From a virus, in UHGV virus genome UHGV-0385671: a stretch of DNA of 42,417 nucleotides; one strand, written 5' to 3'. The position numbers and the translations under genes are program-made. Below are positions 845 to 39,317 of the stretch, piece by piece. Below the pieces are notes generated by a model. The model worked only from the letters and a program-made list of their open reading frames with translations. It did not search any database and was not told the DNA's origin. Position 1 is the stretch's first letter. Each line of letters begins with the position of its first letter.

Positions 845-867
845 TAGATTCACATGGGGAGGGGGCT

Positions 868-1639: not shown

Positions 1640-1643
1640 ATTT

Positions 1644-1940
1644 TTATAATATCCTCTCTAGGTTCTTGCTATCCAGCACCACTACGGTAAAGCCCAGTTT
1701 TCGCAGACGTTCATGTTCGCGCAACTGGTCAGGCCGTGGTGGCTTGCCGGGTGATTTACATTCAACGAAAAAGATACGACCACCTGGTAGCAGGACAATG
1801 CGATCCGGTACCGAGCGGTGACCGGGAGATACAAACTTAAAGGCCACTCCGCCAGCTTTTTTCACTTCAGCGACGAGGTGCTTTTCGATAAGGCTTTCAC
1901 GTTCATAGGCCATCTGAATCCCACTCTTCAAAAAGCACAT
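1644..1940 (-). CDS. VRR-NUC domain nuclease
   Basis: PD-(D/E)XK-like motif PDRIVLLPGGRIFFVECK and overall VRR-NUC pattern; 98 aa; sits in the replication module. Confidence 0.8.
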   Translation of the reverse strand: MCFLKSGIQMAYERESLIEKHLVAEVKKAGGVAFKFVSPGHRSVPDRIVLLPGGRIFFVECKSPGKPPRPDQLREHERLRKLGFTVVVLDSKNLERIL

Positions 1941-2202
1941 TCAATTCCAGTTTCTCTGCCAACGCGTTTTCTGCACGTGCGCCGGCAGAGTACTCCCACT
2001 CTTTGAGCATATAAATCGTATCGGCACAGCGAAGCATTGTGAGGCAGATGTCCATATACTGAGCCTGTGTCAAACCATTGGGTACAGTTGCGGGGTTAAG
2101 CACAACATATCCCTTGTCCGTTAGCTTCTTTGCTGCGGAATGAAAAGCCGGGCGGTTAAATTGCTCGTAACCGCTCATCGGCCCGGCAACGTAAACGATC
2201 AT
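1903..2202 (-). CDS. DUF4406 / nucleoside 2-deoxyribosyltransferase-like protein
   Basis: N-terminal VYVAGPMSG motif and NPA motif typical of this family as I recall it; 99 aa. Confidence 0.65.
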   Translation of the reverse strand: MIVYVAGPMSGYEQFNRPAFHSAAKKLTDKGYVVLNPATVPNGLTQAQYMDICLTMLRCADTIYMLKEWEYSAGARAENALAEKLELNVLFEEWDSDGL

Positions 2203-2414
2203 TCTTCGACCACCTTACGCTTTTCACGCATATTCTGCATCAGGCAAAAATCAGATCTGCGTTCACTCCATTCCTGATTCAATTCGTGATGTGATTCGCG
2301 GTTGGCTTTTGCCCAGACCTTCGCTGCCCGGTCATATTCGCCGGATTGTTCAAGTCGCAAAGCCTCCCTTGCAGCCCTGTAATAAAGTGGATTGTCCCGG
2401 TATTTAAATGACAT
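2199..2414 (-). CDS. Small hypothetical protein (71 aa), possibly ANR-like small regulator
   Basis: ORF with 4-nt overlap to downstream gene in operon; helical pattern PLYYRAAREALRLEQSGEYDRAAKVWAKA; family assignment tentative. Confidence 0.4.
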   Translation of the reverse strand: MSFKYRDNPLYYRAAREALRLEQSGEYDRAAKVWAKANRESHHELNQEWSERRSDFCLMQNMREKRKVVEE

Positions 2415-2419
2415 AGGAG

Positions 2420-4483
2420 TTAATCCTTACGGTAGTGGTACGCCTCAAAACCGCCAGCGTTCAGTGGGATATCGGGCGCCCATTCGGGGTTAGTGGAGAG
2501 AAGCGCGGAAAGCGCTTTATCGTTGAAATCTTCTGTGTCAGGTGCTTCGGTGATCACCTCGTCGTGTACCGTCAGCACAATGCTGTAACCGGCATCTTCG
2601 ATAAGCGGCATGTTTCCGGCCAGAACGTCGCGGGCGGCCGCCTGGGTGACGTTCTCCACCAGCTTTCCGCCGTAGGTTTTGAGTCGTTGCCATTTACGCG
2701 AATAAGAGTTAACACCCATGTAGGTGATATTCCCTTGTTCGATAACCGGAGACGGGTAGCATACAGCGCGTCCGGATGGTAGCTGTATGCGTAGCCACGC
2801 GCCATCGCGGCGGATTTTAAGATAACCGCAATACAATGTTTTTTGCGGTGTGGCGATTGCAGTGCGGACGGTGCGCTCCAGTTCGTACCAGAAATCACAG
2901 GTCGCGGGATGCGCCCGGCGCCAGAGACGTTTAAGTGAGTCGCAGGCGATAAATACCCGTTCAGAAAGGCCGTAGGTTGACTTACGTTTAACCGATTCGC
3001 CGTACCAGCTTTTCGCCTCGCGGATAACATCGCGGGGAATGTTTGGCAGTGCAGCGTTTGCCAGCTCGTCGAGATCGAGACCGTAAACCAGTGCAAAAGT
3101 GATGAAGGCCGACACACCACCACCATAACCCAGACCGAGTTCCATGACTTTACCGATCTGACGCATGCGTTTATCAACATCATCTGGTGCAATATCAAAA
3201 GCTTTTGCATACGCCAGTTTATATAAGTCCGGACCCGTTCCGGCGTCGTACTCTCTGAATGCATTCAGTTTCCATTCTTCTCCTGCCAGCCATGACAGCA
3301 TACGGCCTTCAATGTTCGACAAGTCACTTACCACCAGTTTTTTGCCTGTTGGCGCGATAATGCAGCCACGTAACGCTGAACTGGTTAGTTCCATGATATT
3401 GTCAAACAGCAGGTCTGCACATCCGGCTTTCAGTGCTTCGATGCCTTCGTCTATTTGTTCCTGTTTTAGTGAAGGGCGGGGAAGGTTCTGGGGCTGGAAT
3501 AGCCGTCCGGCCCAGCGCCCGGTACGCGACGCCCCGCAGAACTGTAGCGTACCGCGTAAGCGCCCGTCGTGGCTTACGCCTTTCATTAGTGCCTTGTATT
3601 TACTGGTGCTGGTAGTACTGGCTTGCAGGCGGATAGCCAGCAGTTCTTTCACGGCAGATGGTAAATCGGGGTCGGCTATACGACGTTCTAGGGTACTGCG
3701 TTGCATGTCTGGTAGCTCCACACCGTAGGATTCAACGATGTGCTTAATCAACGCGTCCCGTTGTGTGGCTGCCTGCACTTCGCCATCAGTCATTTCCTGT
3801 GTACGCTTTGCCAGGCGCTTTTGCTCCTGGTCTACCGCTTCGATCGCAGCGCGCGCGAGTTGCATGTCCATGCAGACGCCCCGGTCGTTGATCTGCTGAT
3901 CACGATGCCAGAGCGCCAGCTCTGTCCCCTGATAATTCCACTTCGGCAGACGTTTATAGACTTCGCGCATTGCCTCGATATCCAGTCCGGCGTAAGCAAC
4001 AAAGCGCCGCCATTCTTCCGGGTGGGTTTTACTGGTGGCCCGACGCAGTTTGCTGTTTTTCGGGCGTGGCTTACAGAACAGCTGGATCAGCGCTTTACCT
4101 TCTTTGTCCTTCGCTTTGTCTTGCGGGACGCCTAGTACTTCGCAGAGTTCCCCCAGAGACCCCGGGAGACCGTGCGCCAGCGCCTGCACCATCGTGTCGC
4201 GCCAACGTTCGACTGGCGGTGCCAGTCGCGGCATTGCATAACGCAGAACGGTGCGGTCGAAGTGAGAGTTATGGAAATAAAGCAGGGTTTCAGGGTCTGC
4301 GATTGCTTCGTATAAGCCGTGTGGAATACCACCACCGGCAGTGATATCCCACACGTTTACTGGCCCGTCGTTGATAGCCCATGCGAAAAGCATCACTTCA
4401 ACGCCTTCGGCATACGCATGGGTACCGTTGTTGATCGGAATGTCACAATAGGTTTCCAGGTCGCCCCATAGTATATTGGACAT
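2420..4483 (-). CDS. Family A DNA polymerase with N-terminal 3'-5' exonuclease domain
   Basis: 687 aa; DnaQ-like exo motif near N-terminus (GDLETY) and PolA-like palm region; GAGGA SD 8 nt upstream of ATG. Confidence 0.9.
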
Positions 4484-4544
4484 AAAATATCCTCATATGG
4501 TATATGGTTAAATGCTAGATATCATGAATTAAAGGAGACAACTA

Positions 4545-5234
4545 ATGACTGTGGGTAATAAGAGACAGCCTAATGGATTACCTGAATATTATTGTCACCG
4601 TGGTAACGACATAAAAGATGCGATAGTTCGGGATTTTACTATTCAGCCTGTTGCACACCTGAAACTTATTACTGGACAAACTAAAACCAGTTATTCCGGT
4701 TATCCGTTAACCGATCAGTACTATTGTTTTTCATTTAAAAAACGCTCTGATGAAAATTGTACAGGGGCTTTTTTCTGTGGTAGAGATGTTGCAAAGGATT
4801 TCATTCGGCGTATCGGTTGTACAGAGCTGCCGTTATTTAATCCTATGAAATCGGATACCAGTGCAGCAATAGAACGTTCCGGTTCTGGCTCAGGTAGTTC
4901 TGGTATTACTGTCAAGCCAAATGCTGACAAAAAGCTATTTATAGACGCAGTTCGTCTGTTAATGACGCTGTGGGATTCAACAAGTAAGGGACAAACCCCA
5001 CTGGCGTCGGTTCTTAATGAAGCAATTTCTGGTGGTATAGATAAACCTCCAGAAATTAGACATGTAGTGGCGGTTAATACAATGTTGGGTAACACAAAAA
5101 ATACTTTAACTGGTCTGCTGGATAAAGCAAGAGCGAAGTATCCTGATGTGTTATTCAGAGATTTTGATTTCACGCCTCTTAACGAGATTGTAAAACGTTC
5201 AAAATCATATAATAAGCATCCCCCTTGTTATTGA
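4545..5234 (+). CDS. Hypothetical Cys-rich protein with Gly/Ser linker, encoded antisense inside the leftward replication operon
   Basis: Strong SD AAGGAGA 7 nt upstream of ATG 4545; Cys/His cluster at N-terminus (CHRGN..C..C..C), SGSGSGSSG linker; lower GC by eye than neighbours. Confidence 0.6.
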   Translation: MTVGNKRQPNGLPEYYCHRGNDIKDAIVRDFTIQPVAHLKLITGQTKTSYSGYPLTDQYYCFSFKKRSDENCTGAFFCGRDVAKDFIRRIGCTELPLFNPMKSDTSAAIERSGSGSGSSGITVKPNADKKLFIDAVRLLMTLWDSTSKGQTPLASVLNEAISGGIDKPPEIRHVVAVNTMLGNTKNTLTGLLDKARAKYPDVLFRDFDFTPLNEIVKRSKSYNKHPPCY

Positions 5235-5869
5235 GTATCAGACACTGTATTGGTAGGAAGGCCTATCATTTCATTTAATGTCTCTCGATGTACCGCTGGT
5301 GCTAAAGGGACTGGCGGTGCGTCTGTTGGAAGCAGTTCTTTAGCTTCGGGCCATACATCCAGTAATCGTTTTACTGTCCGAACTTTATTTAGAGCCGCGC
5401 TGACGTTCTGTATGATTTCGGTTTCATCACTTTTAATTTGTGTGTAGAGAGCATCAAAGCTATAAAACTCCGTTACCAGAGGATCTTCGCCAAGTAGAGT
5501 AAATTCTGCAGGTGCTATTTTATTAATATGCTCGGGGGCTCCTGATTCATAACCTCTGTAGTTGCCATTGAAATAAATGTTTGCTCTGGCTCCAGCCAGA
5601 TTGAGATATATGCAGCAATCTTTTCGAATTAAAGAACTATTGGTTTTTAATGAATCAGGGATTTTTGTGACCATGGATTCAATCTTTTTTATATTTTTTA
5701 ATATTTCAGCTTCTTTCTCTACGCCCCCGATAGCTGCAAGCCGAACACGTTCGGCCCATTCAACACGAGCAGCTCGTAGTGCTGATTTACGTTTGGGGAT
5801 ACCCGCTTTCTCAAGTGCGTTATTGATGATTTGAGTTTTAAGGTGATTAGTTAATACGGGCTGTGACAT
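5228..5869 (-). CDS. Hypothetical early protein (213 aa); start chosen at ATG 5869 rather than the GTG at 5899
   Basis: GAGGGAAAG SD upstream of ATG 5869; the longer GTG start lies inside a perfect hairpin. Confidence 0.55.
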   Translation of the reverse strand: MSQPVLTNHLKTQIINNALEKAGIPKRKSALRAARVEWAERVRLAAIGGVEKEAEILKNIKKIESMVTKIPDSLKTNSSLIRKDCCIYLNLAGARANIYFNGNYRGYESGAPEHINKIAPAEFTLLGEDPLVTEFYSFDALYTQIKSDETEIIQNVSAALNKVRTVKRLLDVWPEAKELLPTDAPPVPLAPAVHRETLNEMIGLPTNTVSDTQ

Positions 5870-5889
5870 TATACTTTCCCTCATGAGAT

Positions 5890-5910
5890 CCCCCAGCACG
5901 TAGCTGGGGG
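5890..5910. other. Perfect 8-bp stem-loop (CCCCCAGC-ACGTA-GCTGGGGG) in the 5' leader of gene 5228..5869
   Basis: Inverted repeat read directly; followed on the plus strand by a U-rich tract, so it could terminate antisense transcripts or act as a processing or translational element. Confidence 0.4.
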
Positions 5911-5920
5911 ATGAATATTT

Positions 5921-6469
5921 TTAAATTAGTGCTTCAGCATCAGCACCTTCGCTGATATCGTCAAAATCGTCAGCGCTTGCCACTCCGCCGCCAGCGAATG
6001 CATCGCCGTCTCGCAGGAACTGGACTCCGCCGAGTGAGGCATTAATGCGTTTACCGAAATTATTGTCCTGTGCCCAGATATCGATAACGGCGTTTACATA
6101 GCACCCTGCATAGGGACGTCCATCAGCCTGAATTAGTGGCGAACGATCGCGATCAAGAACAGCTGGGCGCGCTTTGTTAGCAGCATTCAGGAAGAAATTA
6201 CCGGGAAAGCCTTCATACTCTGCTTTTTCATCACCATCATGTAGGCACAGATTGAGTTTTTTCTCCAGCTGGCTATAAATGGGCTCCCACTTTTCTCCCC
6301 ATTTTTCCTTCGCTACCTGCTTCATAGCTTTACGGATTTCTTCCAGTTGTGGGTGTTTGGGTGACATTAAAAATACTGCGGAGAAACGCGGATCGCCTTC
6401 GCCGTTTACAGTTTTAGCTTCAAACAGAGACGGGAAGGCCAGACGAACATTGTTCAGCTTCAGTTTCAT
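5921..6469 (-). CDS. DUF2815-family phage protein (commonly paired with DUF2800; putative ssDNA-binding)
   Basis: N-terminus MKLKLNNVRLAFPSLFEA and gene order next to DUF2800 and PolA. Confidence 0.7.
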   Translation of the reverse strand: MKLKLNNVRLAFPSLFEAKTVNGEGDPRFSAVFLMSPKHPQLEEIRKAMKQVAKEKWGEKWEPIYSQLEKKLNLCLHDGDEKAEYEGFPGNFFLNAANKARPAVLDRDRSPLIQADGRPYAGCYVNAVIDIWAQDNNFGKRINASLGGVQFLRDGDAFAGGGVASADDFDDISEGADAEALI

Positions 6470-6484
6470 GGGTATTTCCTTAAA

Positions 6485-7786
6485 TCAGATGAGGTCTGCG
6501 GTTAGCGTATCGTCGGATACGTCGTCGAAATCATTTACAGGGTTGATATTGAGTGCGGGGCGTGGGTCTGACTCGGGAACGACGGTGGGTTTACCATCAG
6601 CTCGTGTTATCAGTGCCTCGACTTTTGACCAACGGCGCGGACTGGCCTTTTTGATAAGTTTTTCGGCTTTTGTGGGACTAATAAGTTTAAAGTCGAATAC
6701 TTCTTCAGTTTTGTACCTGAACTGGTCTTTCAGCAGCGCGCGGGCGGCTTCTTCATCGCTCCAGGCGCGATTACCCTGTTTACCAGTAACCAACTTAAAG
6801 CCCGGTACCGGATGCCCGGCGTTCAGCTCACTGTTCACCCGGTCGCGCACAGCCTTTAGCCAGGATTCAATAAAGTCGGCCTGGCTGTAGATCTCCGCCA
6901 GTTCCTCGATTGTCAGAAGCGGTACGCGCGAGCTGGCATCAGTGATGATTTCACTAACCGGTTTGGTCAGGTCTTCGAAATCGCTGGCAGCAGTTTGCAT
7001 GTGCTGCATTTTCTGAGCAATGCAGACTGCTTTGGCTTTGCAGAATCGGCACTGTTTTTCCCCGGGGGTGAAGTTTTCCAGCGGCAGGGTTTCGACGCCT
7101 TCGCAATCGGCGATGTTGAACATCACGATTACACTGGCTGCCGCTTCCTGCGCCCGTTCGCCGAACGCCTGGAGCTCTTCCACCGTCAGAGCCCACTCTG
7201 AAACGTGGTTAAGCCGCGGCTGGTGGATGAACAGGCGCACCGTCTCGAAGTCGTACAGCATGCTGAACTGTTCGAGTGCGCCAAGGGCATACAGCTGCAG
7301 CTGCTCGTTCTGCTCGGCGTCGACCCGCACACCCTTACCGTATTTCAGATCGTGGATCTGCAGCTCGTTGCCCGCGATGATTACGCCGTCGGCGGTACCG
7401 AATGACTCGTCTACGCCCACGATATGGGAGAAGTCGACACGCTGCTCGACCAGCAGCTCATTGCCCTGCGCCAGCGCCCAAACAGTGTCGACGTAACGAC
7501 CAACGGCTTCGACCATTTCCTCATCTACCTGCGGGCCGGAAGTATCATCCGGGTGCTCAGCAAGAGGATAGGATCCGAGGAACATCGCGACGGTGCAACC
7601 TGCATAGTGCTCCGGGTGGCTCTGGCGGTTGCGCAGCACCTTTTCGGCAAGTGCATGCGCTGCAGTGCCCTCGATTGCGAAAGTTGTTTCTTTATCCGGT
7701 TGTGTGGCCTCCAGCGCCAGACTTCCTGGGCAGCGCATCCATCGATGCGCTGATGATGGAGAAAGTTGTGCGTGAACGTCTGGCAT
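6485..7786 (-). CDS. DUF2800 PD-(D/E)XK nuclease, Cas4-like with C-terminal Cys cluster
   Basis: N-terminal [15 protein letters not shown] motif and C-terminal [10 protein letters not shown] four-Cys cluster. Confidence 0.8.
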
Positions 7787-7788
7787 GA

Positions 7789-8691
7789 TTAACCCTCCAG
7801 TGCTTTTTCAGCCAGGGTGATTACTTCAGCGAGATTTTCATCCGTTACTTCACCAAGTTTCCTGGCTCCCTGTTTTTCCAGAATTGCAATAGCTTCTGCC
7901 CGGTAACCCCCTTTTGCTAACTGGAGGATCAACCCTTCAGCTTGTTTGCGTAGTGCCGCGAAATCAATTGTATGGTCATCTTTGGCGTCATTATTCTGAC
8001 TGGAATTTGCTGCGTCTCTGCGTGCAAATTCTTCCTGCAGCTGAAGGTACTCAACACGGTTGATCTCGATATGGCCTTTTTTAAGCATCTCGTTCAACTT
8101 GCGTAAGGTGTGGAGTTCACTGGCTGCTGTGCCGGATACATTTTTGACGTAAAACGGCCCCGTGCGTTCTCCATCTTTGTTACTGGCCTTTTTCGGCTTA
8201 ACTTCATCACGCCCATCTGCAGGTGCATCAAGTAGCTGCTCGGCAAAAGCACGTCGCTCGCCGATGGTTGGCAGGTCGTCCCAGAACTTAAGAATGTTAC
8301 GGGACAGGTCCAGGAGAGCAGGTTTAAGCAGCGCTCTGGCTCGTTTGACGCCCTGTAATGCGCTGTCGAGAGCATCAATCTGAACTACTCGTTTATCGCC
8401 TTCAGCATCACGGTAGGCAACAGCACGTTGCAGCATGTCTTCTGTGATAGGGGTGGCTACCGGGTAGAAACCAGCCAGTGCGATAACGTCGCTGAACTCC
8501 AGATCATCCAGTGTCATTGCCGCTGACATATTTTCAGTTTCAGTTGCTGTATCCCGACATTCCTGCACTCGTGAAATCGTGTCAGGATGCATAACAATAC
8601 CTGATGCCATTGTGCGGATAAGACGTTCAAGCAGCGCATTATGTTGTGCCAGAAGTTGATTATTAAGTTCTAGACTGGTTTCTAAACTCAT
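7789..8691 (-). CDS. Hypothetical early protein (300 aa)
   Basis: Long ORF in operon with 1-4 nt overlaps to neighbours; no recognised motif. Confidence 0.55.
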
Positions 8692-8870
8692 ACTGTGGTC
8701 CTCGCTACAAGGAGAATGAAAGTGATGATCAGACCGAGCGCAGTGGCAACGGCCAGACCGGTCATCAAATCGAAGTTTTTACGGCGATAACGGAGAACAT
8801 CGCGCCCCGTCAGTCTATGGATGTGTTCAGGTTTCATCGGTTGTATTCCTTTTTTCATATCGGGGAGCAC
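8688..8870 (-). CDS. Small early membrane protein (60 aa, C-terminal TM helix)
   Basis: C-terminal hydrophobic stretch LAVATALGLIITFILLV; overlaps downstream gene by 4 nt. Confidence 0.45.
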   Translation of the reverse strand: MLPDMKKGIQPMKPEHIHRLTGRDVLRYRRKNFDLMTGLAVATALGLIITFILLVARTTV

Positions 8871-8896
8871 GCTGTTGCGAGTGCGCTTTCAGACAT

Positions 8897-8922
8897 AAAA
8901 AAGCCCGTCACTTGAGGCGGGC
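8897..8922 (-). terminator. Intrinsic terminator on the minus strand between the first early gene and the rest of the leftward operon (tL1-like position)
   Basis: GC stem GCCCG/CGGGC followed on the minus strand by UUUUUU. Confidence 0.45.
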
Positions 8923-8964
8923 AAAGACTACACACAGCAATTACATGGAGGATTCAGAGGATTG

Positions 8965-9159
8965 TTATGGGGGAAGGACGACGGTATCCATTCGGTTAAA
9001 ACAAGTATTGGTCGCAGAACCTGTATGTTTGTTAACTAGAGTCAGGCTAACGTTATGCTGGTCGCGGTCAGTTTTTTGGGTAACCTCCATTATCCGTTTT
9101 CCACTGAATTCAATTTTGTCGCCGATAGCCAGGTCATTAACCAGTTTATATTTAGGCAT
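8965..9159 (-). CDS. Small first gene of the leftward early operon (64 aa), function unknown
   Basis: ATG 9159 preceded by GAGGAA SD; first gene downstream of the PL-like region and immediately followed by a terminator. Confidence 0.5.
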   Translation of the reverse strand: MPKYKLVNDLAIGDKIEFSGKRIMEVTQKTDRDQHNVSLTLVNKHTGSATNTCFNRMDTVVLPP

Positions 9160-9445
9160 CTTGTGATTCCTCATTCAGTTCACTTTAGTGGTTCGGCGGC
9201 TTCGACTTGTATTAATTAGACAGTGCTTCGCCGCACCCCAAAGGGAACTTACTGATCCGTATTGCCGACATCCTGTCCCGCCACGGTCCCGACGCATGGT
9301 TTAGAGTCGCGCCGTTCGACTTGTGGCTAAAGATACAATTTGAGTTGTATTGTGTAAACCACAAATATGGTATTTTGTAGGGTGTGAATACTACTTTATT
9401 GATATTTAAGTGAATTTAATTTGTAAGACTTTACAAATGGGGTAA

Positions 9446-9465
9446 GGGAGGCTGTTACGCCTCCC
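9446..9465 (-). terminator. Possible terminator hairpin downstream of the repressor gene
   Basis: 7-bp stem GGGAGGC/GCCTCCC with 6-nt loop 20 bp after the CI stop; trailing U-tract is weak. Confidence 0.3.
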
Positions 9466-9484
9466 GATATTTACGGTGGGAATA

Positions 9485-10108
9485 CTAACGTTTACGGCGG
9501 TAAATACGGTGTTCGATCATTACACCTATGATCTGTAAGTTCATATCTGCACTACGAAAAATAGGGTAATCAGGATTTAGGGGGATTAATTCAAAGTCGT
9601 CGATGCCGATTCCTAATGGGCGGTATTTTTTAAATGTAGCTTCGTGACCGTCGTTTTTGGCGACAACAAACTCCCCTGGTGCAGGACATAGATCAGGATC
9701 GATGATAACGATGTCTCCTTCTTTAAACTCTGGTTGCATGCTGTCGCCATCAATACGTAATGCGAAGCATGTTTCTGGAATGTCAGAGTCTGCCAAAATA
9801 TATTCAAATTCCCCTGTCAGATCTGTTATGTCTCTTGCTTCTGTAAGCTCTCCTGCCTGAACGTAACTTAATATAGGTATGCGTCTGGTACTTATCTCTG
9901 TGAGAGGCATAATATTTTTACCGTTCAGTAGCCAGTCTGGGCTACATTTCAAGGCCTTAGCCAAATCCAGAAGATTGCGTGGCTTTCTGGTTCGTCCACT
10001 TTCGATGGATTCTATGGATTGTTGGCTAACCCCTGCAGAATTCGCTACTTCCACTTGAGTCATTCCTAATTCCAAACGACGTGCTTTAAAACGGGCTGCG
10101 AGAGACAT
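9485..10108 (-). CDS. CI-like repressor: XRE HTH plus S24 (LexA-like) self-cleaving peptidase domain
   Basis: HTH QVEVANSAGVSQQSIESIESG; Ala-Gly cleavage site in VQAGEL; GDSM and KK catalytic dyad; AGGA SD upstream of ATG 10108 (ORF track start 10198 is probably too long). Confidence 0.9.
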   Translation of the reverse strand: MSLAARFKARRLELGMTQVEVANSAGVSQQSIESIESGRTRKPRNLLDLAKALKCSPDWLLNGKNIMPLTEISTRRIPILSYVQAGELTEARDITDLTGEFEYILADSDIPETCFALRIDGDSMQPEFKEGDIVIIDPDLCPAPGEFVVAKNDGHEATFKKYRPLGIGIDDFELIPLNPDYPIFRSADMNLQIIGVMIEHRIYRRKR

Positions 10109-10131
10109 GGGATTAGTCCTTCTGGGTTGTA

Positions 10132-10153
10132 TTAATGTGTATACCCACATTAA
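10132..10153. promoter_or_regulatory. Palindromic operator candidate (TTAATGTG-N6-CACATTAA) in the CI/Cro divergent promoter region
   Basis: Perfect 8-bp inverted arms with 6-bp spacer read directly. Confidence 0.5.
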
Positions 10154-10167
10154 AAACAATTTTTGTT

Positions 10168-10202
10168 GTATTTGACAAACCCCATTCGTTGTTGTCAAAT
10201 AC
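10168..10202. promoter_or_regulatory. Second inverted repeat (GTATTTGACAA ... TTGTCAAATAC) carrying TTGACA -35-like hexamers facing both directions
   Basis: 11-bp arms are exact reverse complements; each arm contains TTGACA. Confidence 0.5.
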
Positions 10203-10444: not shown

Positions 10445-12637
10445 ATGTCCGATAGCAAACCATGGGGAGCTACGCCTGATGAGTGGTTTCATTTCGACCT
10501 GGTATTGGGGAGAACTGATCATCTTCTCCCAGTTGTATGTAACCCCGGTGCGACCATATCCCCTGACAGTAAACTGAAAGCGCTGGGTAAGACGCCAAGT
10601 CGCTATAACCGGGACCGCCAGGTCACCGGTATTGCTCAATGGACCGGACATGTTGTTACTGAGCATGATTTTGCCCGCTGGTCGAATGAACCGGATTATG
10701 GCATCTGCGTGCGTACAGGCCATGGCTGGCTGGCGCTGGACTGCGATAGCGAAGATGAAGACATTCAGGCAGATATTCGCAAAACGCTTGTGCAACTTCT
10801 GGGGGAGTTGCCGCCGCGACGCTGGCGAGCAAACAGTAATAAGTGTCTGTATCTGCTGGCCGTTGATGGTGATTTCCGTAAGCGTATCCATCGCCTGGCG
10901 GGGGATATGGGCATTATCGAGTTGCTGGCGAACGGGCAGCAGTTCGTTGCCTGCGGTACGCACAGCAGCGGTGCGCGTATTGAATGGGACGGCGGTTTGC
11001 CGGATGAACCTCCGGCTATTACTGGTGAGCAGCTTGAAACGCTGTGGCAGCGCCTGGCTGAACAACTCCCTGTGTCGGTAACCACCGAAGCGGGCAACAC
11101 GAAGATGCGCGACCGATCAGCATTCACGCCCGGCGCGACGGATGATACAGCTGAATATCTTGATGCCAATGGCTGGACGCTGCTGGATGGCGCAAACGGT
11201 GAACGATATATCCGCTGTCCGTTTGAAGACGGCCACAGTAGCGGGGGCGACCCAACAAGTACAGTTTATTTTCCTGCGGGAACTGCGGGCTTTGAGCAGG
11301 GGCATTTTAAATGCCTACATGCCAGTTGCGCGCATCGTGATGACGGAGATTTCCTGAATGCCATCGGGATCCGCAACGACGATTTCGAAGATCTGACCAG
11401 CATCGAAGTGGCGGAACCTTTACCGCTGCCTGCTTTCGAGCGTGATAAATGGGGGCGTATCGAGGCAACCATCAGCAACGCAGCCAAAGCAGTAGTACGC
11501 CCTGATTTTGTGGACATCGATATTCGCTTTGACCAGTTCCGCGACGAAATCATGTTTGCCCCGGCAGGATCCGGACAATGGCGGGCATTCACCGATGCGG
11601 ATTATGCGCGCCTGCGCATCACGATGGAAAAGCGGGGATTTAAACCTGTTGGCCGTGAACTTATTCGCGATGTGGTGTTACTTGCAGCCGATGAACAACC
11701 ATTCGATTCAGCAATCACCTGGCTGAACGGACTGGAGTGGGATGGCGTGCCGCGCATCGAATGTTTCTACCATACGCACTTCGGTACCGCCGACACGCCT
11801 TATACCCGTGCGGTGTCTATGTACATGTGGACCGCGTTGGCGGGGAGAGTACTGGAGCCAGGCATCAAAGCGGATATGGTGCCGATCCTCGTTGGTCCGC
11901 AGGGCTGCGGTAAGTCTTCCGGAGTGGAGGCACTGAGCCCTGATCCTGCGTTTTTTACTGAAATCTCTTTTGCCGAAAAAGACGATGATCTCGCTCGAAA
12001 AATGCGTGGTCGGCTGGTGGCAGAGATTGGTGAACTGCGCGGACTTAATACCAAAGAGCTGGAGTCAATCAAAGCGTTTGTGACGCGTACTCACGAAAAC
12101 TGGATCCCGAAATACCGGGAGTTCGCCACCCAGTTTCCTCGTCGCCTGGTGTTCGTTGGTACCACCAATGAGGACGAATTCCTTGCGGACAAGACTGGTA
12201 ACCGTCGCTGGCTCCCCGTGGAAGTGTCGAAAGTCGACGTGAAAGCGATAAAAAGAGATCTCCTTTTACTTTGGGCTGAGGCTCGTGAGGTGTTTCAGCG
12301 TCTGGGGGGGATCCAGTTCCGTGAGGCTGAACAACTGGCAGCGAGTGTCCATGAACAGTACACCATCAAGGATGCTTGGCTTGAAACGGTAGAGAAATGG
12401 CTCGACACGCCAGACCTGATGACTAATGAACTTCCGCGAAATTGCGAATTTTTACGCGCAAGTGATGTTTTGCGTGATGCGATTGGGCTAAATCCTGACC
12501 GCATCGGAAAACGCGAAGAAATGCGAATTAGTAATGTTTTGCAAAATTGCGGGTATAAGCGTGCTCAAAGGCGAATTGGGGGGAAAATGACTCGAATTTT
12601 TGAGGCGGTGTCCCAACCTGTACCAGCCTCAAAATAG
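10445..12637 (+). CDS. Replication initiator: primase-polymerase N-terminal domain fused to a D5/VirE-like P-loop NTPase (helicase)
   Basis: 730 aa; Walker A VGPQGCGKSS; N-terminal region matches the bifunctional primase/polymerase pattern as I recall it; first gene of the rightward early operon after cro. Confidence 0.8.
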   Translation: MSDSKPWGATPDEWFHFDLVLGRTDHLLPVVCNPGATISPDSKLKALGKTPSRYNRDRQVTGIAQWTGHVVTEHDFARWSNEPDYGICVRTGHGWLALDCDSEDEDIQADIRKTLVQLLGELPPRRWRANSNKCLYLLAVDGDFRKRIHRLAGDMGIIELLANGQQFVACGTHSSGARIEWDGGLPDEPPAITGEQLETLWQRLAEQLPVSVTTEAGNTKMRDRSAFTPGATDDTAEYLDANGWTLLDGANGERYIRCPFEDGHSSGGDPTSTVYFPAGTAGFEQGHFKCLHASCAHRDDGDFLNAIGIRNDDFEDLTSIEVAEPLPLPAFERDKWGRIEATISNAAKAVVRPDFVDIDIRFDQFRDEIMFAPAGSGQWRAFTDADYARLRITMEKRGFKPVGRELIRDVVLLAADEQPFDSAITWLNGLEWDGVPRIECFYHTHFGTADTPYTRAVSMYMWTALAGRVLEPGIKADMVPILVGPQGCGKSSGVEALSPDPAFFTEISFAEKDDDLARKMRGRLVAEIGELRGLNTKELESIKAFVTRTHENWIPKYREFATQFPRRLVFVGTTNEDEFLADKTGNRRWLPVEVSKVDVKAIKRDLLLLWAEAREVFQRLGGIQFREAEQLAASVHEQYTIKDAWLETVEKWLDTPDLMTNELPRNCEFLRASDVLRDAIGLNPDRIGKREEMRISNVLQNCGYKRAQRRIGGKMTRIFEAVSQPVPASK

Positions 12638-12914: not shown

Positions 12915-13349
12915 ATGCGTAATATTCAACAGGTTTTAGAGCGCTGGGGTGGCTGGGCTGCCAATAGCAACACCACAGTGAGCTGGGCTCCAATAGCGGC
13001 GGGATTTAAAGGGCTGGTAGTCAGCAGCTCGCCTGGCAGGCTGAGTTGCTGTGACGACGATGGCCTGATTATCGATGCTTGCGTCTGTCGGCTGCAGCAG
13101 GTCCGTAAGCCTGAGGAACTGGACGTCATTATGCTGTACTACGTCTACGGGTTAAGCAAACGTGAGATAGGGCGGCGGCGTCGCTGTTCTGAAGGATTTA
13201 TCCGCCAGCAGTTGCAGGTAGCTGAGGGATTCATTGAGGGGTGTCTCTGCATGCTGGGTGTGAGCCTTCAGATGGATCCTGAGGTCGAAATTCAAAGGGA
13301 CGAAAAAAGTATTAGTGCGCTACGCAAAAACTGCGCTACGCTGGTATGA
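12915..13349 (+). CDS. Q-like late-gene antiterminator
   Basis: Position between replication and lysis genes; recalled resemblance to the small Q antiterminator family (MR.IQ.VLERWG.WAA..., CCDDD, AEG.IEG motifs). Confidence 0.6.
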   Translation: MRNIQQVLERWGGWAANSNTTVSWAPIAAGFKGLVVSSSPGRLSCCDDDGLIIDACVCRLQQVRKPEELDVIMLYYVYGLSKREIGRRRRCSEGFIRQQLQVAEGFIEGCLCMLGVSLQMDPEVEIQRDEKSISALRKNCATLV

Positions 13350-13628
13350 GTTGAATTTCTGACCTCAACGAAGAGCTCCAAATCATTGGGGCTTTTTTAA
13401 TGCTCTATTCTCAGTAAAAGTTAATAAAACAGGGTTTTCGTCGCGAAAAAACGCTATGCAGTTTTTGCCCTTTTTTATGCACCTTTTATTCACTCGAATT
13501 TCGCCATTCTGGACCACTTAAGTTGATTAAATAGGCCTTTCATCGCAAATCTATTGCGAGCGGTGATCGTGTGGTTCCTATAACGTACATTATGTTAAAT
13601 AACCTCCTTTTTTAACAAATTTAACAAG

Positions 13629-13651
13629 GTTCGCTATGGCGAACTTTTTTT
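13629..13651 (+). terminator. Intrinsic terminator (tR'-like) between Q and the lysis cassette
   Basis: 6-bp stem GTTCGC/GCGAAC, 4-nt loop, followed by TTTTTTT. Confidence 0.7.
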
Positions 13652-13752
13652 GTATTCAGGGCCCACCGAAGGACGGCTCATAACCCAATCCTACGGGCGT
13701 ATACGCAGGGCCCGCCTTTCAACAACACCCCGTAATGGCGGAGGTGGGAAGT

Positions 13753-14094
13753 ATGAAAATGCACAATGCTCCTCATTCCTGGCCTGACTTACTGGAACTC
13801 TTACAAAGTTGGTGGCGTGGAGATACGCCGTTGGGCGCAGTGGTTATGTCAATTGTTATGGCTGGTTTGCGCATTGCCTATTTTGGCGGTGGCGGCGGCT
13901 GGAAACGAAAAACGCTTGAGATTTTGCTCTGTGGTGCTCTGACGCTGACCTTTGCATCCGCTCTTGAGTATGTTGGATGGCCTAAATCGCTTTCTGTTGC
14001 CATTGGTGGTGGTGTTGGGCTGATCGGTGTCGATGCTATTCGTGGGGCTGCAATGCGAGTAATCGGTAACAAGTTTGGTGGCTCTAAGGAGTAA
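13753..14094 (+). CDS. S: Holin, lambda S-like with dual-start Met-Lys-Met motif
   Basis: GGAGG SD 8 nt upstream of ATG 13753; MKM start; three hydrophobic segments; immediately upstream of endolysin. Confidence 0.8.
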   Translation: MKMHNAPHSWPDLLELLQSWWRGDTPLGAVVMSIVMAGLRIAYFGGGGGWKRKTLEILLCGALTLTFASALEYVGWPKSLSVAIGGGVGLIGVDAIRGAAMRVIGNKFGGSKE

Positions 14095-14097
14095 TTC

Positions 14098-14574
14098 ATG
14101 CAGACACTAAATTCCCAACGTAAAGCTTTCCTGGATATGGTGGCATGGTCAGAAGGAACGGATAACGGGCGACAACCGACACGTAATCACGGTTATGACG
14201 TTATCGTCGGAGGTGAGTTGTTCACTGATTACTCCGATCACCCTCGCAAACTTGTCACGCTAAACCCGAAGCTTAAATCAACAGCTGCAGGCCGGTATCA
14301 GCTTCTTTCACGCTGGTGGGATGCCTACCGCAAGCAGCTTGGCCTGAAAGATTTTTCGCCAGAAAGTCAGGACGCTGTGGCGCTGCAGCAGATTAAAGAG
14401 CGTGGCGCTTTACCGATGATTGACCGTGGCGATATTCGTCAGGCAATCGACCGTTGCAGCAATATCTGGGCGTCGTTACCTGGTGCAGGTTACGGTCAGT
14501 ATGAACATAAAATCGGTGACCTGATTTCCAAGTTTAAAGATGCTGGTGGGGTGGTAAATGAAGCTGACTTATAA
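14098..14574 (+). CDS. R: Endolysin, lambda R-type lytic transglycosylase
   Basis: 158 aa; near residue-for-residue match to my recollection of lambda R (QRKAFLDM.AWSEGTDNGRQ.TRNHGYDVIVGGELFTDYSDHPRKLVTLNPKLKST). Confidence 0.9.
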   Translation: MQTLNSQRKAFLDMVAWSEGTDNGRQPTRNHGYDVIVGGELFTDYSDHPRKLVTLNPKLKSTAAGRYQLLSRWWDAYRKQLGLKDFSPESQDAVALQQIKERGALPMIDRGDIRQAIDRCSNIWASLPGAGYGQYEHKIGDLISKFKDAGGVVNEADL

Positions 14575-15082
14575 GATTGTCATCGCGGCACTTTTCTTCT
14601 CTGCCCTTGGGGCGCTCGTCTGGTCTGCAAACCATTACCACAGCAAGTATCAGGCACAAAAGTTGCGGGCTGATAAAGCGGAAGGTGAAGCTGAATATCA
14701 AGGGAAAGTGATAGCTAATCAGGCATTAAACTTCAATCGTTTTAACCAGATAGCAGAAAACGCAAGCCGATTAAATTCTCTGGTCGACATCGGTCACGAG
14801 AAGAAAGTCATCAAATACCGTGAGGTTCTGCTCCGTGAAAAGAACTGTGATTTCCCTGTTCCTGCTGATATTGCTGTCGGGTTGCTCAACTACGCGAACC
14901 GTTTACGCGCCAGCGCATTGCACGCCGATTCCGGGGACATTGACTCAGCCAGTGATCGTGCCACTACCACCAGAACGTTGACATATTGCCAGGCTGTTCT
15001 GTGGATTAACCCACTGTTGGCAGCCATCGAGAAGGCGAATAACCAGTTGGCTGGTGTCCGACAAATAGAACAGTCCCGGTAA
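14558..15082 (+). CDS. Rz: Rz-like inner-membrane spanin
   Basis: N-terminal TM helix, periplasmic coiled coil, position after R with overlap. Confidence 0.8.
   Translation: MKLTYKIVIAALFFSALGALVWSANHYHSKYQAQKLRADKAEGEAEYQGKVIANQALNFNRFNQIAENASRLNSLVDIGHEKKVIKYREVLLREKNCDFPVPADIAVGLLNYANRLRASALHADSGDIDSASDRATTTRTLTYCQAVLWINPLLAAIEKANNQLAGVRQIEQSR
14835..14981 (+). CDS. Rz1: Rz1-like outer-membrane lipoprotein spanin embedded in the +1 frame of Rz (GTG start)
   Basis: GAGG SD 9 nt upstream of GTG 14835; lipobox LLSGC, proline-rich mature part (VKRTVISLFLLILLSGCSTT...PLPPER); too short for the ORF track. Confidence 0.6.
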   Translation: MKRTVISLFLLILLSGCSTTRTVYAPAHCTPIPGTLTQPVIVPLPPER

Positions 15083-15143: not shown

Positions 15144-15716
15144 ATGACTAAGAAGCTGAAAGCAAAACACGAGGTGTTTTGTCGCGAGTTTCTTGTCGAT
15201 CTGAATGCTACACAAGCAGCTATTCGCGCAGGCTATGCCTCCAGGCGAGCACATGTTACGGGGGCTGAACTATATGGTAAACCTGAGATACGCGCCCGCA
15301 TTAACGAGCTAAAGCAGGAGCGTATTGATCAACTAGGCATTGATGCGAATTATGTGCTAATGCGACTGGTTGAGATCGACAGGCTCGATGTGGCTGACAT
15401 CCTGGAGGACGATTTAAGTATTAAGCCTCTGTCTGCGTGGCCGGAATCGTGGCGTCGGTACCTAAGTGGATTTAACCTCGCTGAAATGTTTGAGGGGCGA
15501 GGAGATGACAGAGAAATGGTCGGGCTCCTTAAAAAGATTAAGTGGCCTGATAAGGTTAAAAACCTTGAGTTGCTTGGGCGCCATGTTTCTGTTCAGGCGT
15601 TTAAAGACAACGTCAAAAATGAAGTGACTGGCGCTGATGGAGGACCAGTCAGAACAGAAATTACCAACTTAACGCCGGAGCAGGCTGCAGAGGCGTATAG
15701 AAAAATGATGGGGTGA
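15144..15716 (+). CDS. Terminase small subunit
   Basis: 190 aa; N-terminal pattern AKHEVFCREFLVDLNATQAAIRAGY typical of terminase small subunits; precedes terL. Confidence 0.8.
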   Translation: MTKKLKAKHEVFCREFLVDLNATQAAIRAGYASRRAHVTGAELYGKPEIRARINELKQERIDQLGIDANYVLMRLVEIDRLDVADILEDDLSIKPLSAWPESWRRYLSGFNLAEMFEGRGDDREMVGLLKKIKWPDKVKNLELLGRHVSVQAFKDNVKNEVTGADGGPVRTEITNLTPEQAAEAYRKMMG

Positions 15717-15741: not shown

Positions 15742-15954
15742 TTAGGCTTGCTTTGGTCGAGTAATACGGCCAAGAGCTTTAATTGCAGCGACTTTGACGT
15801 TGTGATTTAAGTCTGAAGATAAAGCAAGTAAGCGATTTACATGAGCTGGCGTTGCTGAAGCACTCTCACCGAGAGCATAAATTGCAGACAATTTTACTTC
15901 GTTGTTAAGGTCGTTGGTTAATTCCAACAACTTAGCACTAACTGCTGGTGTCAT
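15742..15954 (-). CDS. 70-aa protein with two tandem HEAT/PBS-lyase-like repeats, antisense between terS and terL
   Basis: AGGAGG SD 4 nt upstream of ATG 15954; internal tandem repeat LLELTNDLNNEVKLSAIYALGESA / LLALSSDLNHNVKVAAIKALGRIT; sits in a 309-bp terS-terL gap. Confidence 0.55.
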   Translation of the reverse strand: MTPAVSAKLLELTNDLNNEVKLSAIYALGESASATPAHVNRLLALSSDLNHNVKVAAIKALGRITRPKQA

Positions 15955-16025
15955 AAAACCTCCTGTAATTGGTACATAAACACTATCAACTTTGTTACGC
16001 AAAAACTCAATGCCTGGAATTGTTT

Positions 16026-39014: not shown

Positions 39015-39317
39015 ATTGCTGTATTACTATGAAAATAAATGTGTTTTTATTTGATCTCACACATATCACAATTAATACAGCGTTTAGTAATTAGTAAAGA
39101 CATTTCAATGAATTACCGTTAAATCATTTTAAAATCAGTAAGTTGTATCGAGTTTGTATGCTTTACTGTCATTAACTTACTGTATGTTGATCCAGTGTAT
39201 TTAACCTTGATAAACTCAGTCCAGCAACACAAAACCGCAACACATTACATTTTGTCCCGTAGAAAAGACTTGTATGTGTGAGCTTGTTTTCTGCGCCTAC
39301 GCAGATAAGGATTGAGA

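What the first reader, a model, noticed from the sequence alone, without database searches (positions are those of the whole stretch)
14835..14981. Embedded Rz1-like lipoprotein gene with a GTG start, missed by the ORF track
In the +1 frame of Rz, a 48-codon ORF begins at GTG 14835 (GAGG SD 9 nt upstream) and encodes a signal peptide with lipobox LLSGC followed by a Pro-rich segment, the hallmark of o-spanins. It completes a lambda-type four-gene lysis cassette.
Basis: partly seen in the sequence, partly recalled or inferred. Interest (0 to 1): 0.45.

Follow-up and report, generated by a model that had tools for sequence, protein, structure and literature searches.

The report
Embedded outer-membrane spanin (Rz1-type) gene
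The small hidden gene is real: it encodes the outer-membrane lipoprotein half of a phage "spanin" that breaks the host's outer membrane at lysis. It is an already catalogued type that annotation pipelines usually miss, and its tail seems to have moved onto its partner protein by a reading-frame switch.

Summary
A 48-codon ORF (14835-14981, GTG start, GAGG 9 nt upstream) lies in the +1 frame of the i-spanin gene Rz (14558-15082). It encodes MKRTVISLFLLILLSG|C plus a 32-residue Pro/Thr-rich mature part.

It is a real gene:
- All 85 related copies keep the same GTG, the same 48-codon length and the lipobox.
- Wobble-type variation follows the Rz1 frame, not the Rz frame, across the overlap.
- No other ORF in the window has a lipoprotein signal.

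It is not new. It belongs to the embedded HK225/mEp237/ZF40 spanin family curated by Kongari et al. 2018. A 98% identical 53-aa version is deposited as "lipoprotein Rz1 precursor" in two E. coli genomes. RefSeq omits it.

It is not a sequence homologue of lambda Rz1. An HMM of overlapped o-spanins (SfV, APSE, Yersinia, Klebsiella and Vibrio phages) matches Rz1 with its first half and the last 39 residues of Rz, in the other frame, with its second half. I infer that a frame switch moved the o-spanin's C-terminal helix onto the i-spanin. The 2018 survey reported no family linking embedded and overlapped architectures. One E. coli genome carries a 1-nt insertion that recreates the overlapped form.

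The parts
14835..14981 (+). o-spanin gene (Rz1 analogue): 48 codons plus TGA, GTG start, +1 frame inside Rz.
   Evidence: Sequence read. Conserved in 85 of 85 related copies, always 48 codons. Dual-coding signature across the overlap. phrog_456 'Rz-like spanin' E 8.5e-7. Homologous ORFs were curated as o-spanins in HK225 and mEp237 and annotated as o-spanin in phage LLS.
14822..14825 (+). Shine-Dalgarno-like GAGG, 9 nt upstream of the GTG start.
   Evidence: Relatives carry GGGAGA at the same place.
14835..14882 (+). Lipoprotein signal peptide (M)KRTVISLFLLILLSG. The lipobox L-S-G-C spans 14874-14885 and the lipidated Cys17 is at 14883-14885.
   Evidence: Heuristic scan. Pfam LPAM_1 scores 18.5 bits, below its cut-off of 20. 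The lipobox is conserved in all relatives.
14883..14978 (+). Mature o-spanin, 32 aa: CSTTRTVYAPAHCTPIPGTLTQPVIVPLPPER. Ser at +2, periplasmic Cys29, 7 Pro.
   Evidence: Matches positions 4-47 of an HMM built from overlapped o-spanins, E 3e-10.
14558..15082 (+). i-spanin gene (Rz analogue), 174 aa. It has an N-terminal transmembrane helix and helical periplasmic segments. A variable linker at about aa 121-140 is encoded by the same DNA as the mature part of Rz1. Cys97 and Cys144 are invariant.
   Evidence: phrog_214 E 5.5e-59. 1,808 homologues, nearly all named 'hypothetical'. Alignment invariants. Secondary structure from a low-confidence AF2 model, pLDDT 55.
14963..15079 (+). C-terminal segment of Rz (aa 136-174, TTTRTLTYCQAVLWINPLLAAIEKANNQLAGVRQIEQSR). 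It is homologous to the C-terminal helix of overlapped LysC/SfV-type o-spanins and is the best-conserved part of Rz.
   Evidence: Overlapped-o-spanin HMM positions 44-82, E 3.3e-6. Pfam LysC positions 31-68. phrog_3001 E 2.4e-8. Conservation.
14973..14983 (+). Inferred frame-switch point. The Rz1 stop TGA (14979-14981) lies inside Rz codons Leu141-Thr142 (TTG ACA), which open the conserved LTYC motif.
14697..14708 (+). Recombination (mosaic) junction inside Rz. Upstream DNA is SfV-like and downstream DNA is HK225/mEp237-like.
   Evidence: Window 13780-14696 is 88% identical to SfV S-R-5'Rz. Window 14699/14708-15070 is 76% identical to mEp237/HK225.
14098..14574 (+). Endolysin of the lambda R type (lytic transglycosylase fold).
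   Evidence: PDB 1AM7 E 9e-96. phrog_90 E 1e-63.
13753..14094 (+). Lambda-family holin with an M-K-M dual-start motif. A further in-frame ATG lies at 13735.
   Evidence: TIGR01594 135 bits against a cut-off of 55. PF05106. PGAP start in the identical prophage.
12915..13349 (+). Antiterminator Q, regulator of the late operon that contains the lysis cassette.
   Evidence: PF06530 E 9e-51.
13626..13657 (+). Intrinsic-terminator-like hairpin plus T-run between Q and the holin, in the position of lambda tR'.
   Evidence: This is a consensus match only.

Best explanation
Window 14835-14981 is a functional gene for the outer-membrane subunit (o-spanin) of a two-component spanin. It lies wholly inside, and in the +1 frame of, the inner-membrane subunit gene (i-spanin, 14558-15082).

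Shown by the sequence and comparisons:
- The ORF, its GTG start, its SD and its lipobox are present.
- Purifying selection acts in the Rz1 frame.
- The ORF is homologous to curated o-spanins.

Inferred from established spanin biology (lambda Rz/Rz1):
1. The late transcript, released by Q antitermination, is translated from GTG 14835. The GTG is formed by Rz codons Arg93 (CGT) and Glu94 (GAA). A conserved Arg codon at this position cannot supply the ATG triplet in this register, so ATG is unavailable.
2. The 16-residue signal peptide is removed by signal peptidase II after lipidation of Cys17.
3. Ser at +2 lets the Lol system send the 32-residue lipoprotein to the outer membrane.
4. There it binds the periplasmic C-terminal end of membrane-anchored Rz.
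5. After the holin and the endolysin have removed the peptidoglycan mesh, the Rz-Rz1 complexes fuse or disrupt the two membranes and complete lysis.

The pair belongs to the HK225/mEp237/ZF40 embedded family. Compared with overlapped LysB/LysC-type relatives, the o-spanin's C-terminal helix is encoded here in the Rz frame, as Rz residues about 141-174. That explains why this o-spanin is so short.
For: ORF anatomy.

Conservation: 85 of 85 related copies (36 distinct versions of start codon, upstream 22 nt and peptide) have GTG at the same codon, 48 codons, a lipobox and an SD-like GGGAGA or GTGAGG. Their Rz proteins are only 55-99% identical.

Dual coding (33 sequences below 97% identity):
- Mean nucleotide entropy at Rz codon positions 1/2/3 is 0.32/0.16/1.01 upstream of the overlap and 0.27/0.11/1.02 downstream.
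- Inside the overlap it is 0.59/0.14/0.25, and 0.78/0.15/0.23 over the mature part of Rz1. Variation has moved to the Rz1 wobble position.
- Amino-acid entropy in the overlap is 0.35 in the Rz1 frame against 0.68 in the Rz frame. In its second half the values are 0.35 against 1.08.
- There are no +1-frame stops in the 48 overlap codons, against 2.7 per 42 codons upstream.

Uniqueness: this is the only lipoprotein-signal ORF in six frames, and the shuffle frequency is 0.015%.

Family and context:
- phrog_456 E 8.5e-7 and phrog_214 E 5.5e-59.
- The homologous 48-aa ORFs of HK225 and mEp237 are listed as embedded o-spanins with a 32-aa mature part.
- LLS annotates it as o-spanin.
- BAI31869.1 and KRR57707.1 are named 'lipoprotein Rz1 precursor'.
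- The neighbouring genes are a lambda-family holin and a lambda-R endolysin.
- Deposited phage genomes vB_EcoM-606R2, -689R2, -611R5 and -683R1 carry the same Rz at 98.5% identity.
Against: - There is no direct evidence of translation, lipidation or lysis function for this or any member of the HK225 family. All spanin experiments cited in the 2018 survey were done on lambda.
- The signal-peptide call rests on a home-made heuristic. Pfam LPAM_1 scores 18.5 bits, below its cut-off of 20.
- There is no hit to the lambda Rz1 or Rz Pfam models.
- One subgroup (L031-L033) lacks the periplasmic Cys29, which is Tyr there. The presumed disulfide role of that residue is therefore not universal.
Confidence: 0.9

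Rival explanations
1. The same gene starts at the upstream GTG 14820, giving a 53-aa precursor MRFCSVKRTV..., as deposited in GenBank BAI31869.1 and KRR57707.1. The mature lipoprotein would be identical.
For: the ORF listing reports the ORF from 14820. Two GenBank records use this start. The longer N-region still passes the lipoprotein heuristic.
Against: The codon at 14820 is GGG, not a start, in most relatives, whereas 14835 is GTG in 85 of 85 copies. No SD precedes 14820, and the GAGG overlaps it. Kongari et al. chose the 48-aa form for HK225 and mEp237.
Confidence: 0.06
2. The ORF is a non-coding by-product. It stays open only because the overlapping Rz codons are constrained, and the lipobox is a coincidence.
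For: About 49% of codon-shuffled Rz genes contain some out-of-frame ORF of at least 48 codons, so length alone proves nothing.
Against: Across the overlap the Rz frame is the less conserved one (aa entropy 0.68 against 0.35). Nucleotide variation sits at the Rz1 wobble position rather than the Rz wobble position. A lipoprotein signal arises in only 0.015% of shuffles. The ORF is homologous to the N-terminal half of independently annotated o-spanins, E 3e-10.
Confidence: 0.02
3. The functional o-spanin is a longer LysC-like protein of about 83 aa. It would be made by a programmed -1 ribosomal frameshift near 14970 that joins the Rz1 N-part to the Rz C-terminal helix. The 48-aa product would be a by-product or a second isoform.
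For: An artificial fusion of the two parts matches Pfam LysC over its full length at 41.9 bits, above the cut-off of 27. One E. coli genome encodes exactly such a fusion through a 1-nt insertion, and PGAP names it LysC.
Against: No X XXY YYZ slippery heptamer occurs in the last 12 codons in any of 37 distinct sequences. The in-frame stop is kept in every copy of the embedded family (TGA in 32 distinct end sequences, TAA in 4); the only exception among the 37 is the insertion variant L092. The length is fixed at 48 codons. The fused allele occurs in a single genome.
Confidence: 0.02

Closest known systems
Embedded two-component spanins of phages HK225, mEp237 and ZF40 (family defined by Kongari et al. 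2018, PMC6139136)
   Same: The i-spanin family is the same (phrog_214), and DNA over the 3' two-thirds of Rz is 76% identical. The embedded ORF has the same 48 codons, the same GTG, the same +1 frame and the same 32-aa mature part. It is 73% identical to the mEp237 ORF (35 of 48 residues, counted by hand from the sequences; family listing).
   Different: The first 46 or so codons of the window's Rz, together with the holin and endolysin, are SfV-like rather than HK225-like (88% DNA identity to SfV). ZF40 uses an upstream ATG and has a 61-aa precursor.
Overlapped spanins of the SfV/SfII, Klebsiella Mulock, Yersinia vB_YenM, APSE and Vibrio Pm34 type, and more distantly P2 LysB/LysC (Pfam PF23793 LysC)
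   Same: The loci are collinear and homologous.
- The i-spanin mid-domain HMM hits Pm34 (E 1e-7), Yersinia (6e-7), Mulock and SfII.
- The o-spanin starts in the +1 frame of the i-spanin in these phages too.
- The N-half of their o-spanins (lipobox, TRTVYVP, PxP..LT) matches Rz1, and their C-half (LTWG..LL..L..CN.DKA.IR.IE) matches the Rz C-terminus.
   Different: In those phages the i-spanin stops at about 130 aa, and the o-spanin (mature part 67-75 aa) continues past it, which is the overlapped architecture. Here the o-spanin stops at a TGA inside the L-T codons that open the helix, and the helix is read in the i-spanin frame. The net length difference from SfV in this stretch is -12 and +11 nt. 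The 48-aa protein alone scores 16.9 bits on PF23793, below the cut-off of 27.
Lambda Rz/Rz1
   Same: Both have the embedded architecture, the +1 frame and a position directly after lambda-type S and R genes. Both o-spanins are short Pro-rich lipoproteins with a single periplasmic Cys at precursor position 29, and both i-spanins have two periplasmic Cys. The lambda positions (Rz C99 and C152, and the single Rz1 Cys) are as quoted.
   Different: No sequence similarity is detectable: there is no hit to the Pfam Rz1 or Rz (Phage_lysis) models at E up to 1-10. The start is GTG rather than ATG, and the mature part is 32 aa against 40.

Membership tests
o-spanin (outer-membrane subunit of a two-component spanin; functional class) | N-terminal signal-peptidase-II signal with a lipobox and an invariant Cys. 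| tested here: met
   (M)KRTVISLFLLILL-SG-C fits [LVI][ASTVI][GAS]C, with a charged n-region and an uncharged h-region. The lipobox is conserved in all relatives. Caveat: the test is a heuristic, and Pfam LPAM_1 scores 18.5 bits against a cut-off of 20.
o-spanin (functional class) | Outer-membrane sorting: no Asp at position +2 of the mature protein. | tested here: met
   The +2 residue is Ser and +3 is Thr. Relatives have S, G or N at +2.
o-spanin (functional class) | The gene is embedded in, overlapping with or adjacent to an i-spanin gene (N-terminal TMD, helical periplasmic domain) within a lysis cassette. | tested here: met
   The ORF lies inside Rz (phrog_214 E 5.5e-59), downstream of the holin and endolysin. 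Helices come from a low-confidence AF2 model.
o-spanin (functional class) | Required for outer-membrane disruption, and forms a complex with the i-spanin. | not testable with these tools
   This needs genetics or biochemistry. A silent-in-Rz start-codon mutant (T14836C) is proposed.
HK225/mEp237/ZF40 embedded spanin family (Kongari et al. 2018) | Sequence homology of both subunits to the family members, and the embedded architecture. | tested here: met
   Rz DNA is 76% identical to HK225 and mEp237. The 48-aa ORF is collinear with the curated o-spanins. All 85 copies are embedded.
Lambda Rz1 (Pfam lambda Rz1 lipoprotein family) | A match to the family HMM above its gathering score. | tested here: not met
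   The scans listed no lambda Rz1 family at E up to 1 or up to 10. HMMER filters may drop very weak matches.
LysC, Rz1-like lysis system protein (Pfam PF23793) | A whole-protein score of at least 27 bits over the 69-position model (lipobox, Pro-rich linker and C-terminal helix). | tested here: not met
   The 48-aa protein scores 16.9 bits and covers model positions 1-33 only. Positions 31-68 are matched by Rz residues 136-173 in the other frame, also at 16.9 bits. An artificial fusion scores 41.9 bits.
Lambda Rz (Pfam Phage_lysis family) | A match of the i-spanin to the family HMM. | tested here: not met
   No hit at E up to 1. Some homologues carry PF10828 (DUF2570) instead.

The most novel reading that the evidence does not exclude
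This embedded spanin pair, and the whole HK225/mEp237/ZF40 family, is a frame-switched relative of overlapped LysB/LysC-type pairs. An indel or indels with a net length change of 1 nt modulo 3, near the end of the ancestral i-spanin gene, would have had three effects. It removed the i-spanin stop. It made the o-spanin terminate at a latent TGA inside the Leu-Thr codons that open its C-terminal helix. It fused that helix to the i-spanin.

A functional domain would thus have been handed from one subunit of the complex to the other while the locus stayed collinear. This would be the first documented homology link between embedded and overlapped spanin architectures. The 2018 survey found none and proposed that the two architectures arose by unrelated pathways.

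The direction of the change (overlapped to embedded) is inferred only from the wider host range of the overlapped form.
Probability: 0.75. Interest if true: 0.5.

Novelty: already known. Interest (0 to 1): 0.3.

Why it matters
For annotation: 124 of 5,426 complete E. coli genomes carry this Rz gene. In every RefSeq row examined it is called 'hypothetical protein' and no o-spanin is annotated. The exact 48-aa product is absent from a collection of 15 billion proteins. This is a concrete case of a conserved, selected gene that standard pipelines skip because it is embedded and starts with GTG.

For spanin biology: the gene itself adds nothing new. The frame-switch relationship does give a natural pair of architectures in which the same C-terminal helix sits on the o-spanin (SfV, Yersinia and APSE types) or on the i-spanin (this family). 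A one-nucleotide natural revertant also exists (CP157170). Together these make it directly testable which subunit needs that helix and where the i/o contact lies.

Tried and rejected
- **Lambda Rz1/Rz membership.** No Pfam hit, so rejected.
- **NCBIfam.** Only sub-threshold generic lipoprotein matches for the ORF and nothing for Rz.
- **Upstream start GTG 14820.** Not conserved and has no SD, so rejected as the main start.
- **Internal GTG 14847.** PGAP used it for the fused allele MISLFLL.... The n-region would then lose its charges, and the Val is replaced by Ala or Ile in some relatives, so rejected.
- **Programmed frameshift or stop read-through giving a long o-spanin.** There is no slippery heptamer, the stop is kept in every embedded-family copy, and the +1 frame downstream of the stop is not conserved, so rejected.
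- **AlphaFold2 model of Rz from a 34-sequence alignment.** Mean pLDDT was 55 and pTM 0.24. I used it only for secondary-structure segments and ran no fold search.
- **Literature searches** for a published embedded/overlapped link or for further work on HK225 spanins. They returned only Kongari et al. 2018.
- **Other short 'chimeric' database proteins** (P0123, P0125, P0127, P0128). They look like frame errors or mis-called ORFs on short assemblies and were not used as evidence.

Full report
**1. What is in the sequence**

The window is a lambdoid prophage of E. coli. Its Rz region is 100% identical to NZ_CP148570 and NZ_CP145657. It is at least 95% identical in 124 of 5,426 complete E. coli genomes, and 98.5% identical in four deposited phage genomes (vB_EcoM-606R2 and relatives).

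The late region reads as follows:
- antiterminator Q (12915-13349, PF06530 E 9e-51);
- a terminator-like hairpin (13626-13657);
- a lambda-family holin (13753-14094, TIGR01594 135 bits, M-K-M dual-start motif);
- a lambda-R endolysin (14098-14574, PDB 1AM7 E 9e-96);
- a 174-aa Rz-like i-spanin (14558-15082, phrog_214 E 5.5e-59);
- small terminase (15144-15716).

Inside Rz, in the +1 frame, lies the reported ORF. GTG is at 14835 and TGA at 14979-14981, giving 48 codons. GAGG is at 14822-14825, 9 nt upstream. The product is VKRTVISLFLLILLSG|CSTTRTVYAPAHCTPIPGTLTQPVIVPLPPER.

**2. Is it more than chance?**

Length alone means little, because 49% of codon-shuffled Rz genes contain some out-of-frame ORF of at least 48 codons. 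Only 0.015% of them carry a lipoprotein signal, and the same heuristic finds no other such ORF in any frame of the 42.4-kb window.

The comparative evidence is stronger. I fetched 80 viral contigs and added annotated phage and E. coli loci plus the window itself. In 85 of 85 copies of this family the ORF is present, always embedded, always 48 codons, and always starts with GTG at the same codon. An SD-like GGGAGA or GTGAGG precedes it. The Rz proteins of these copies are only 55-99% identical.

In 33 sequences below 97% identity, the mean entropy at Rz codon positions 1/2/3 changes as follows:

| Region | pos 1 | pos 2 | pos 3 |
|---|---|---|---|
| upstream of the overlap | 0.32 | 0.16 | 1.01 |
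| downstream of the overlap | 0.27 | 0.11 | 1.02 |
| whole overlap | 0.59 | 0.14 | 0.25 |
| mature part of Rz1 | 0.78 | 0.15 | 0.23 |

The freely varying position is therefore the wobble position of Rz1, not of Rz. Amino-acid entropy over the overlap is 0.35 in the Rz1 frame against 0.68 in the Rz frame. In its second half the values are 0.35 against 1.08. There are no +1-frame stops in the overlap, against 2.7 per 42 codons just upstream. This is the signature of a translated, selected gene.

**3. Start codon**

The upstream GTG 14820 gives a 53-aa form, which is the one ORF listing reports and the one deposited in GenBank BAI31869.1 and KRR57707.1. That codon is GGG in most relatives and has no SD. 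GTG 14835 is universal.

The GTG is built from Rz codons Arg93 (CGT) and Glu94 (GAA), both nearly invariant in Rz. An Arg codon at position 93 cannot supply the ATG triplet in this register. The non-ATG start is therefore a consequence of dual coding; this is inference. More distant members use other starts: ATG in ZF40 and probably TTG in Serratia phage OS31.

**4. What it is and how it works**

The gene encodes the o-spanin of a two-component spanin.

Shown here:
- a lipobox (L-S-G-C);
- Ser at +2, with no Asp as an inner-membrane retention signal;
- a 32-residue Pro/Thr-rich mature part with one periplasmic Cys (Cys29);
- a partner i-spanin with an N-terminal transmembrane helix, helical segments, a variable linker at about aa 121-140 that shares its DNA with mature Rz1, and a highly conserved C-terminal helix at aa 143-173. 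The segment boundaries come from a low-confidence AF2 model with pLDDT 55; conservation comes.

Inferred from the lambda paradigm (Kongari et al. 2018; PMC5295617 abstract):
1. The precursor is lipidated and cut by signal peptidase II.
2. The lipoprotein is sorted to the outer membrane.
3. It binds the distal end of Rz across the periplasm.
4. Once holin and endolysin have destroyed the murein, the complex fuses or disrupts the inner and outer membranes.

**5. Comparison with what is known**

The family is already catalogued. Kongari et al. 2018 list (HK225, ZF40, mEp237) as an embedded i-spanin family and an embedded o-spanin family. Their supplementary tables give 48-aa o-spanins with a 32-aa mature part for HK225 (44772-44919) and mEp237 (42574-42721). 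These are exactly the ORFs homologous to the one here. Phage LLS annotates it as o-spanin.

The gene is therefore not new, although it is almost never annotated. RefSeq calls Rz 'hypothetical' and omits Rz1. The 48-aa sequence is absent from a collection of 15 billion proteins.

It is not a sequence homologue of lambda Rz1 or Rz, since neither Pfam model is hit. 'Rz1-like' is correct for function and layout only.

**6. An unexpected relationship**

In the first Pfam scan, the LysC model (PF23793, 69 positions) matched the ORF with positions 1-33. It matched the C-terminus of Rz, in the other frame, with positions 31-68.

I followed this up in five ways.
- **Artificial fusion.** Joining the 48-aa product to Rz residues 140-174 gives 41.9 bits on PF23793 (cut-off 27), against 16.9 bits for each half alone. 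The fusion also hits phrog_456, the family of P2 LysC, at E 3e-13.
- **tblastn of the fusion against 50,697 phage records.** Members of the embedded family match as two pieces in two frames. SfV, SfII, SfIV, Klebsiella Mulock and RothC, Yersinia vB_YenM phages, APSE, Vibrio Pm34 and others match as one piece. That piece covers residues 5-83 or slightly less of the 83-aa fusion, spans the junction, and shows 33-43% identity. In those phages the o-spanin is annotated and overlapped.
- **An HMM built only from seven such overlapped o-spanins**, searched against all 1,518 six-frame peptides of the window. It hits exactly two peptides: the Rz1 ORF (HMM 4-47, E 3e-10) and Rz residues 136-174 (HMM 44-82, E 3.3e-6). 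The next hit has E 0.32. For example, the Yersinia o-spanin ends ...LTWGNSLLLNDTLLTVIEQCNADKASIRQIEQSR..., and the window's Rz ends ...LTYCQAVLWINPLLAAIEKANNQLAGVRQIEQSR.
- **The i-spanins are collinear homologues too.** An HMM of the embedded family's mid-domain hits Pm34 (E 1.4e-7), Yersinia (6e-7), Mulock (0.003) and SfII (0.005), and no decoy peptide. These i-spanins end at about the window's Rz residue 128-130. P2 LysB matches phrog_214 only over profile positions 13-121 of 176.
- **DNA comparison with SfV.** The window lacks 12 nt that contain the SfV Rz stop codon. It has 11 extra nt between CAGCCAGT and the L-T-Y codons, a net change of -1 nt. The Rz1 stop is the TGA or TAA hidden in the Leu/Ile-Thr codons (CTG ACN, TTG ACA, ATA ACG) that open the helix.

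The simplest reading is that an indel or indels with a net length change of 1 nt modulo 3, near the i-spanin stop, converted an overlapped pair into an embedded one. That change moved the o-spanin's C-terminal helix onto the i-spanin. This is inference.

This reading explains why the mature o-spanin is only 32 aa, the shortest value I saw in the excerpts of Kongari's embedded list. The direction is inferred only from the wider host range of the overlapped form (Vibrio, Aeromonas, Hamiltonella, Yersinia, Klebsiella and Shigella phages, and P2-like phages).

[quoted passage not shown] They favoured unrelated origins for the embedded and overlapped forms. I found no later paper making the link in the searchable library.

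**7. A natural toggle**

E. coli CP157170 carries this prophage with a 1-nt insertion (A after window 14948) and a nearby A-to-G change. Rz is cut to 132 aa. A 78-aa protein joins the Rz1 N-part to the Rz C-part, and PGAP names it 'Rz1-like lysis system protein LysC' (WP_431834235.1). It occurs in one genome only, so it could be a mutation in a decaying prophage or an assembly error.

**8. Mosaicism**

The window's holin, endolysin and first 46 or so Rz codons (13780-14696) are 88% identical in DNA to SfV. From 14699/14708 to 15070 the best match is mEp237/HK225 at 76%. The Rz gene is therefore a recombinant between an overlapped-type locus and an embedded-type locus, with the junction at about 14697-14708.

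**9. Verdict**

The gene is an ordinary, already catalogued o-spanin that pipelines miss. The added value is the frame-switch homology to LysC-type spanins. It is well supported computationally but has not been tested experimentally.

Noticed in passing
window 14963-15079 together with 14835-14981: The last 39 residues of Rz, read in the Rz frame, and the Rz1 ORF, read in the +1 frame, match consecutive halves of overlapped LysC/SfV-type o-spanin profiles. This implies a frame switch that moved the o-spanin's C-terminal helix to the i-spanin.
   Followed up: yes
L092 2501-2737 (E. coli CP157170.1), equivalent to window ~14948: A natural 1-nt insertion allele fuses the Rz1 N-part to the Rz C-part, giving a 78-aa protein that PGAP names LysC, and truncates Rz to 132 aa. 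It is seen in one genome only and could be an assembly error.
   Followed up: partly
window 14697-14708: A mosaic junction lies inside Rz. Upstream DNA (13780-14696: holin, endolysin, 5' Rz) is 88% identical to Shigella phage SfV. Downstream DNA (to 15070) is 76% identical to mEp237/HK225.
   Followed up: yes
window 13735-13761: The holin ORF has three in-frame ATGs (M1 at 13735, M7 at 13753, M9 at 13759). M7-K-M9 reproduces the lambda S107/S105 dual-start (antiholin/holin) motif. PGAP starts the gene at 13753.
   Followed up: partly
window 13626-13657: A terminator-like hairpin (AAGGTTCGC-TATG-GCGAACTTT) with a T-run sits between Q and the holin, where a Q-antiterminated tR'-type terminator would be expected.
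   Followed up: no
window 15742-16002 (- strand): An 86-aa HEAT-repeat ORF (PF13646 E 4e-8) lies on the opposite strand between the small and large terminase genes. PGAP annotates the equivalent ORF in the identical prophage. This is an unusual place and fold for a phage gene.
   Followed up: no
window 10445-12637: The 730-aa protein annotated as VapE domain-containing in NZ_CP148570 is intact in the window but marked frameshifted (pseudogene) in that otherwise identical prophage.
   Followed up: no
L031-L033 (IMG/VR contigs), embedded ORF at 1718-1924: One subgroup of the family has Tyr in place of the periplasmic Cys29 of the o-spanin (…VPAPYIPIPG…) but keeps both Rz cysteines. An o-spanin disulfide is therefore not universal in this family.
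   Followed up: no
window 1-10200 and 39300-42417: The flanking context includes a PolA-like protein (2420-4483, -), a DUF2800/PD-(D/E)XK nuclease (6485-7786, -), a CI-like S24 repressor (9485-10198, -), an integrase-family protein (39312-40715, +) and an SNF2-type helicase (40909-42306, -).
   Followed up: no
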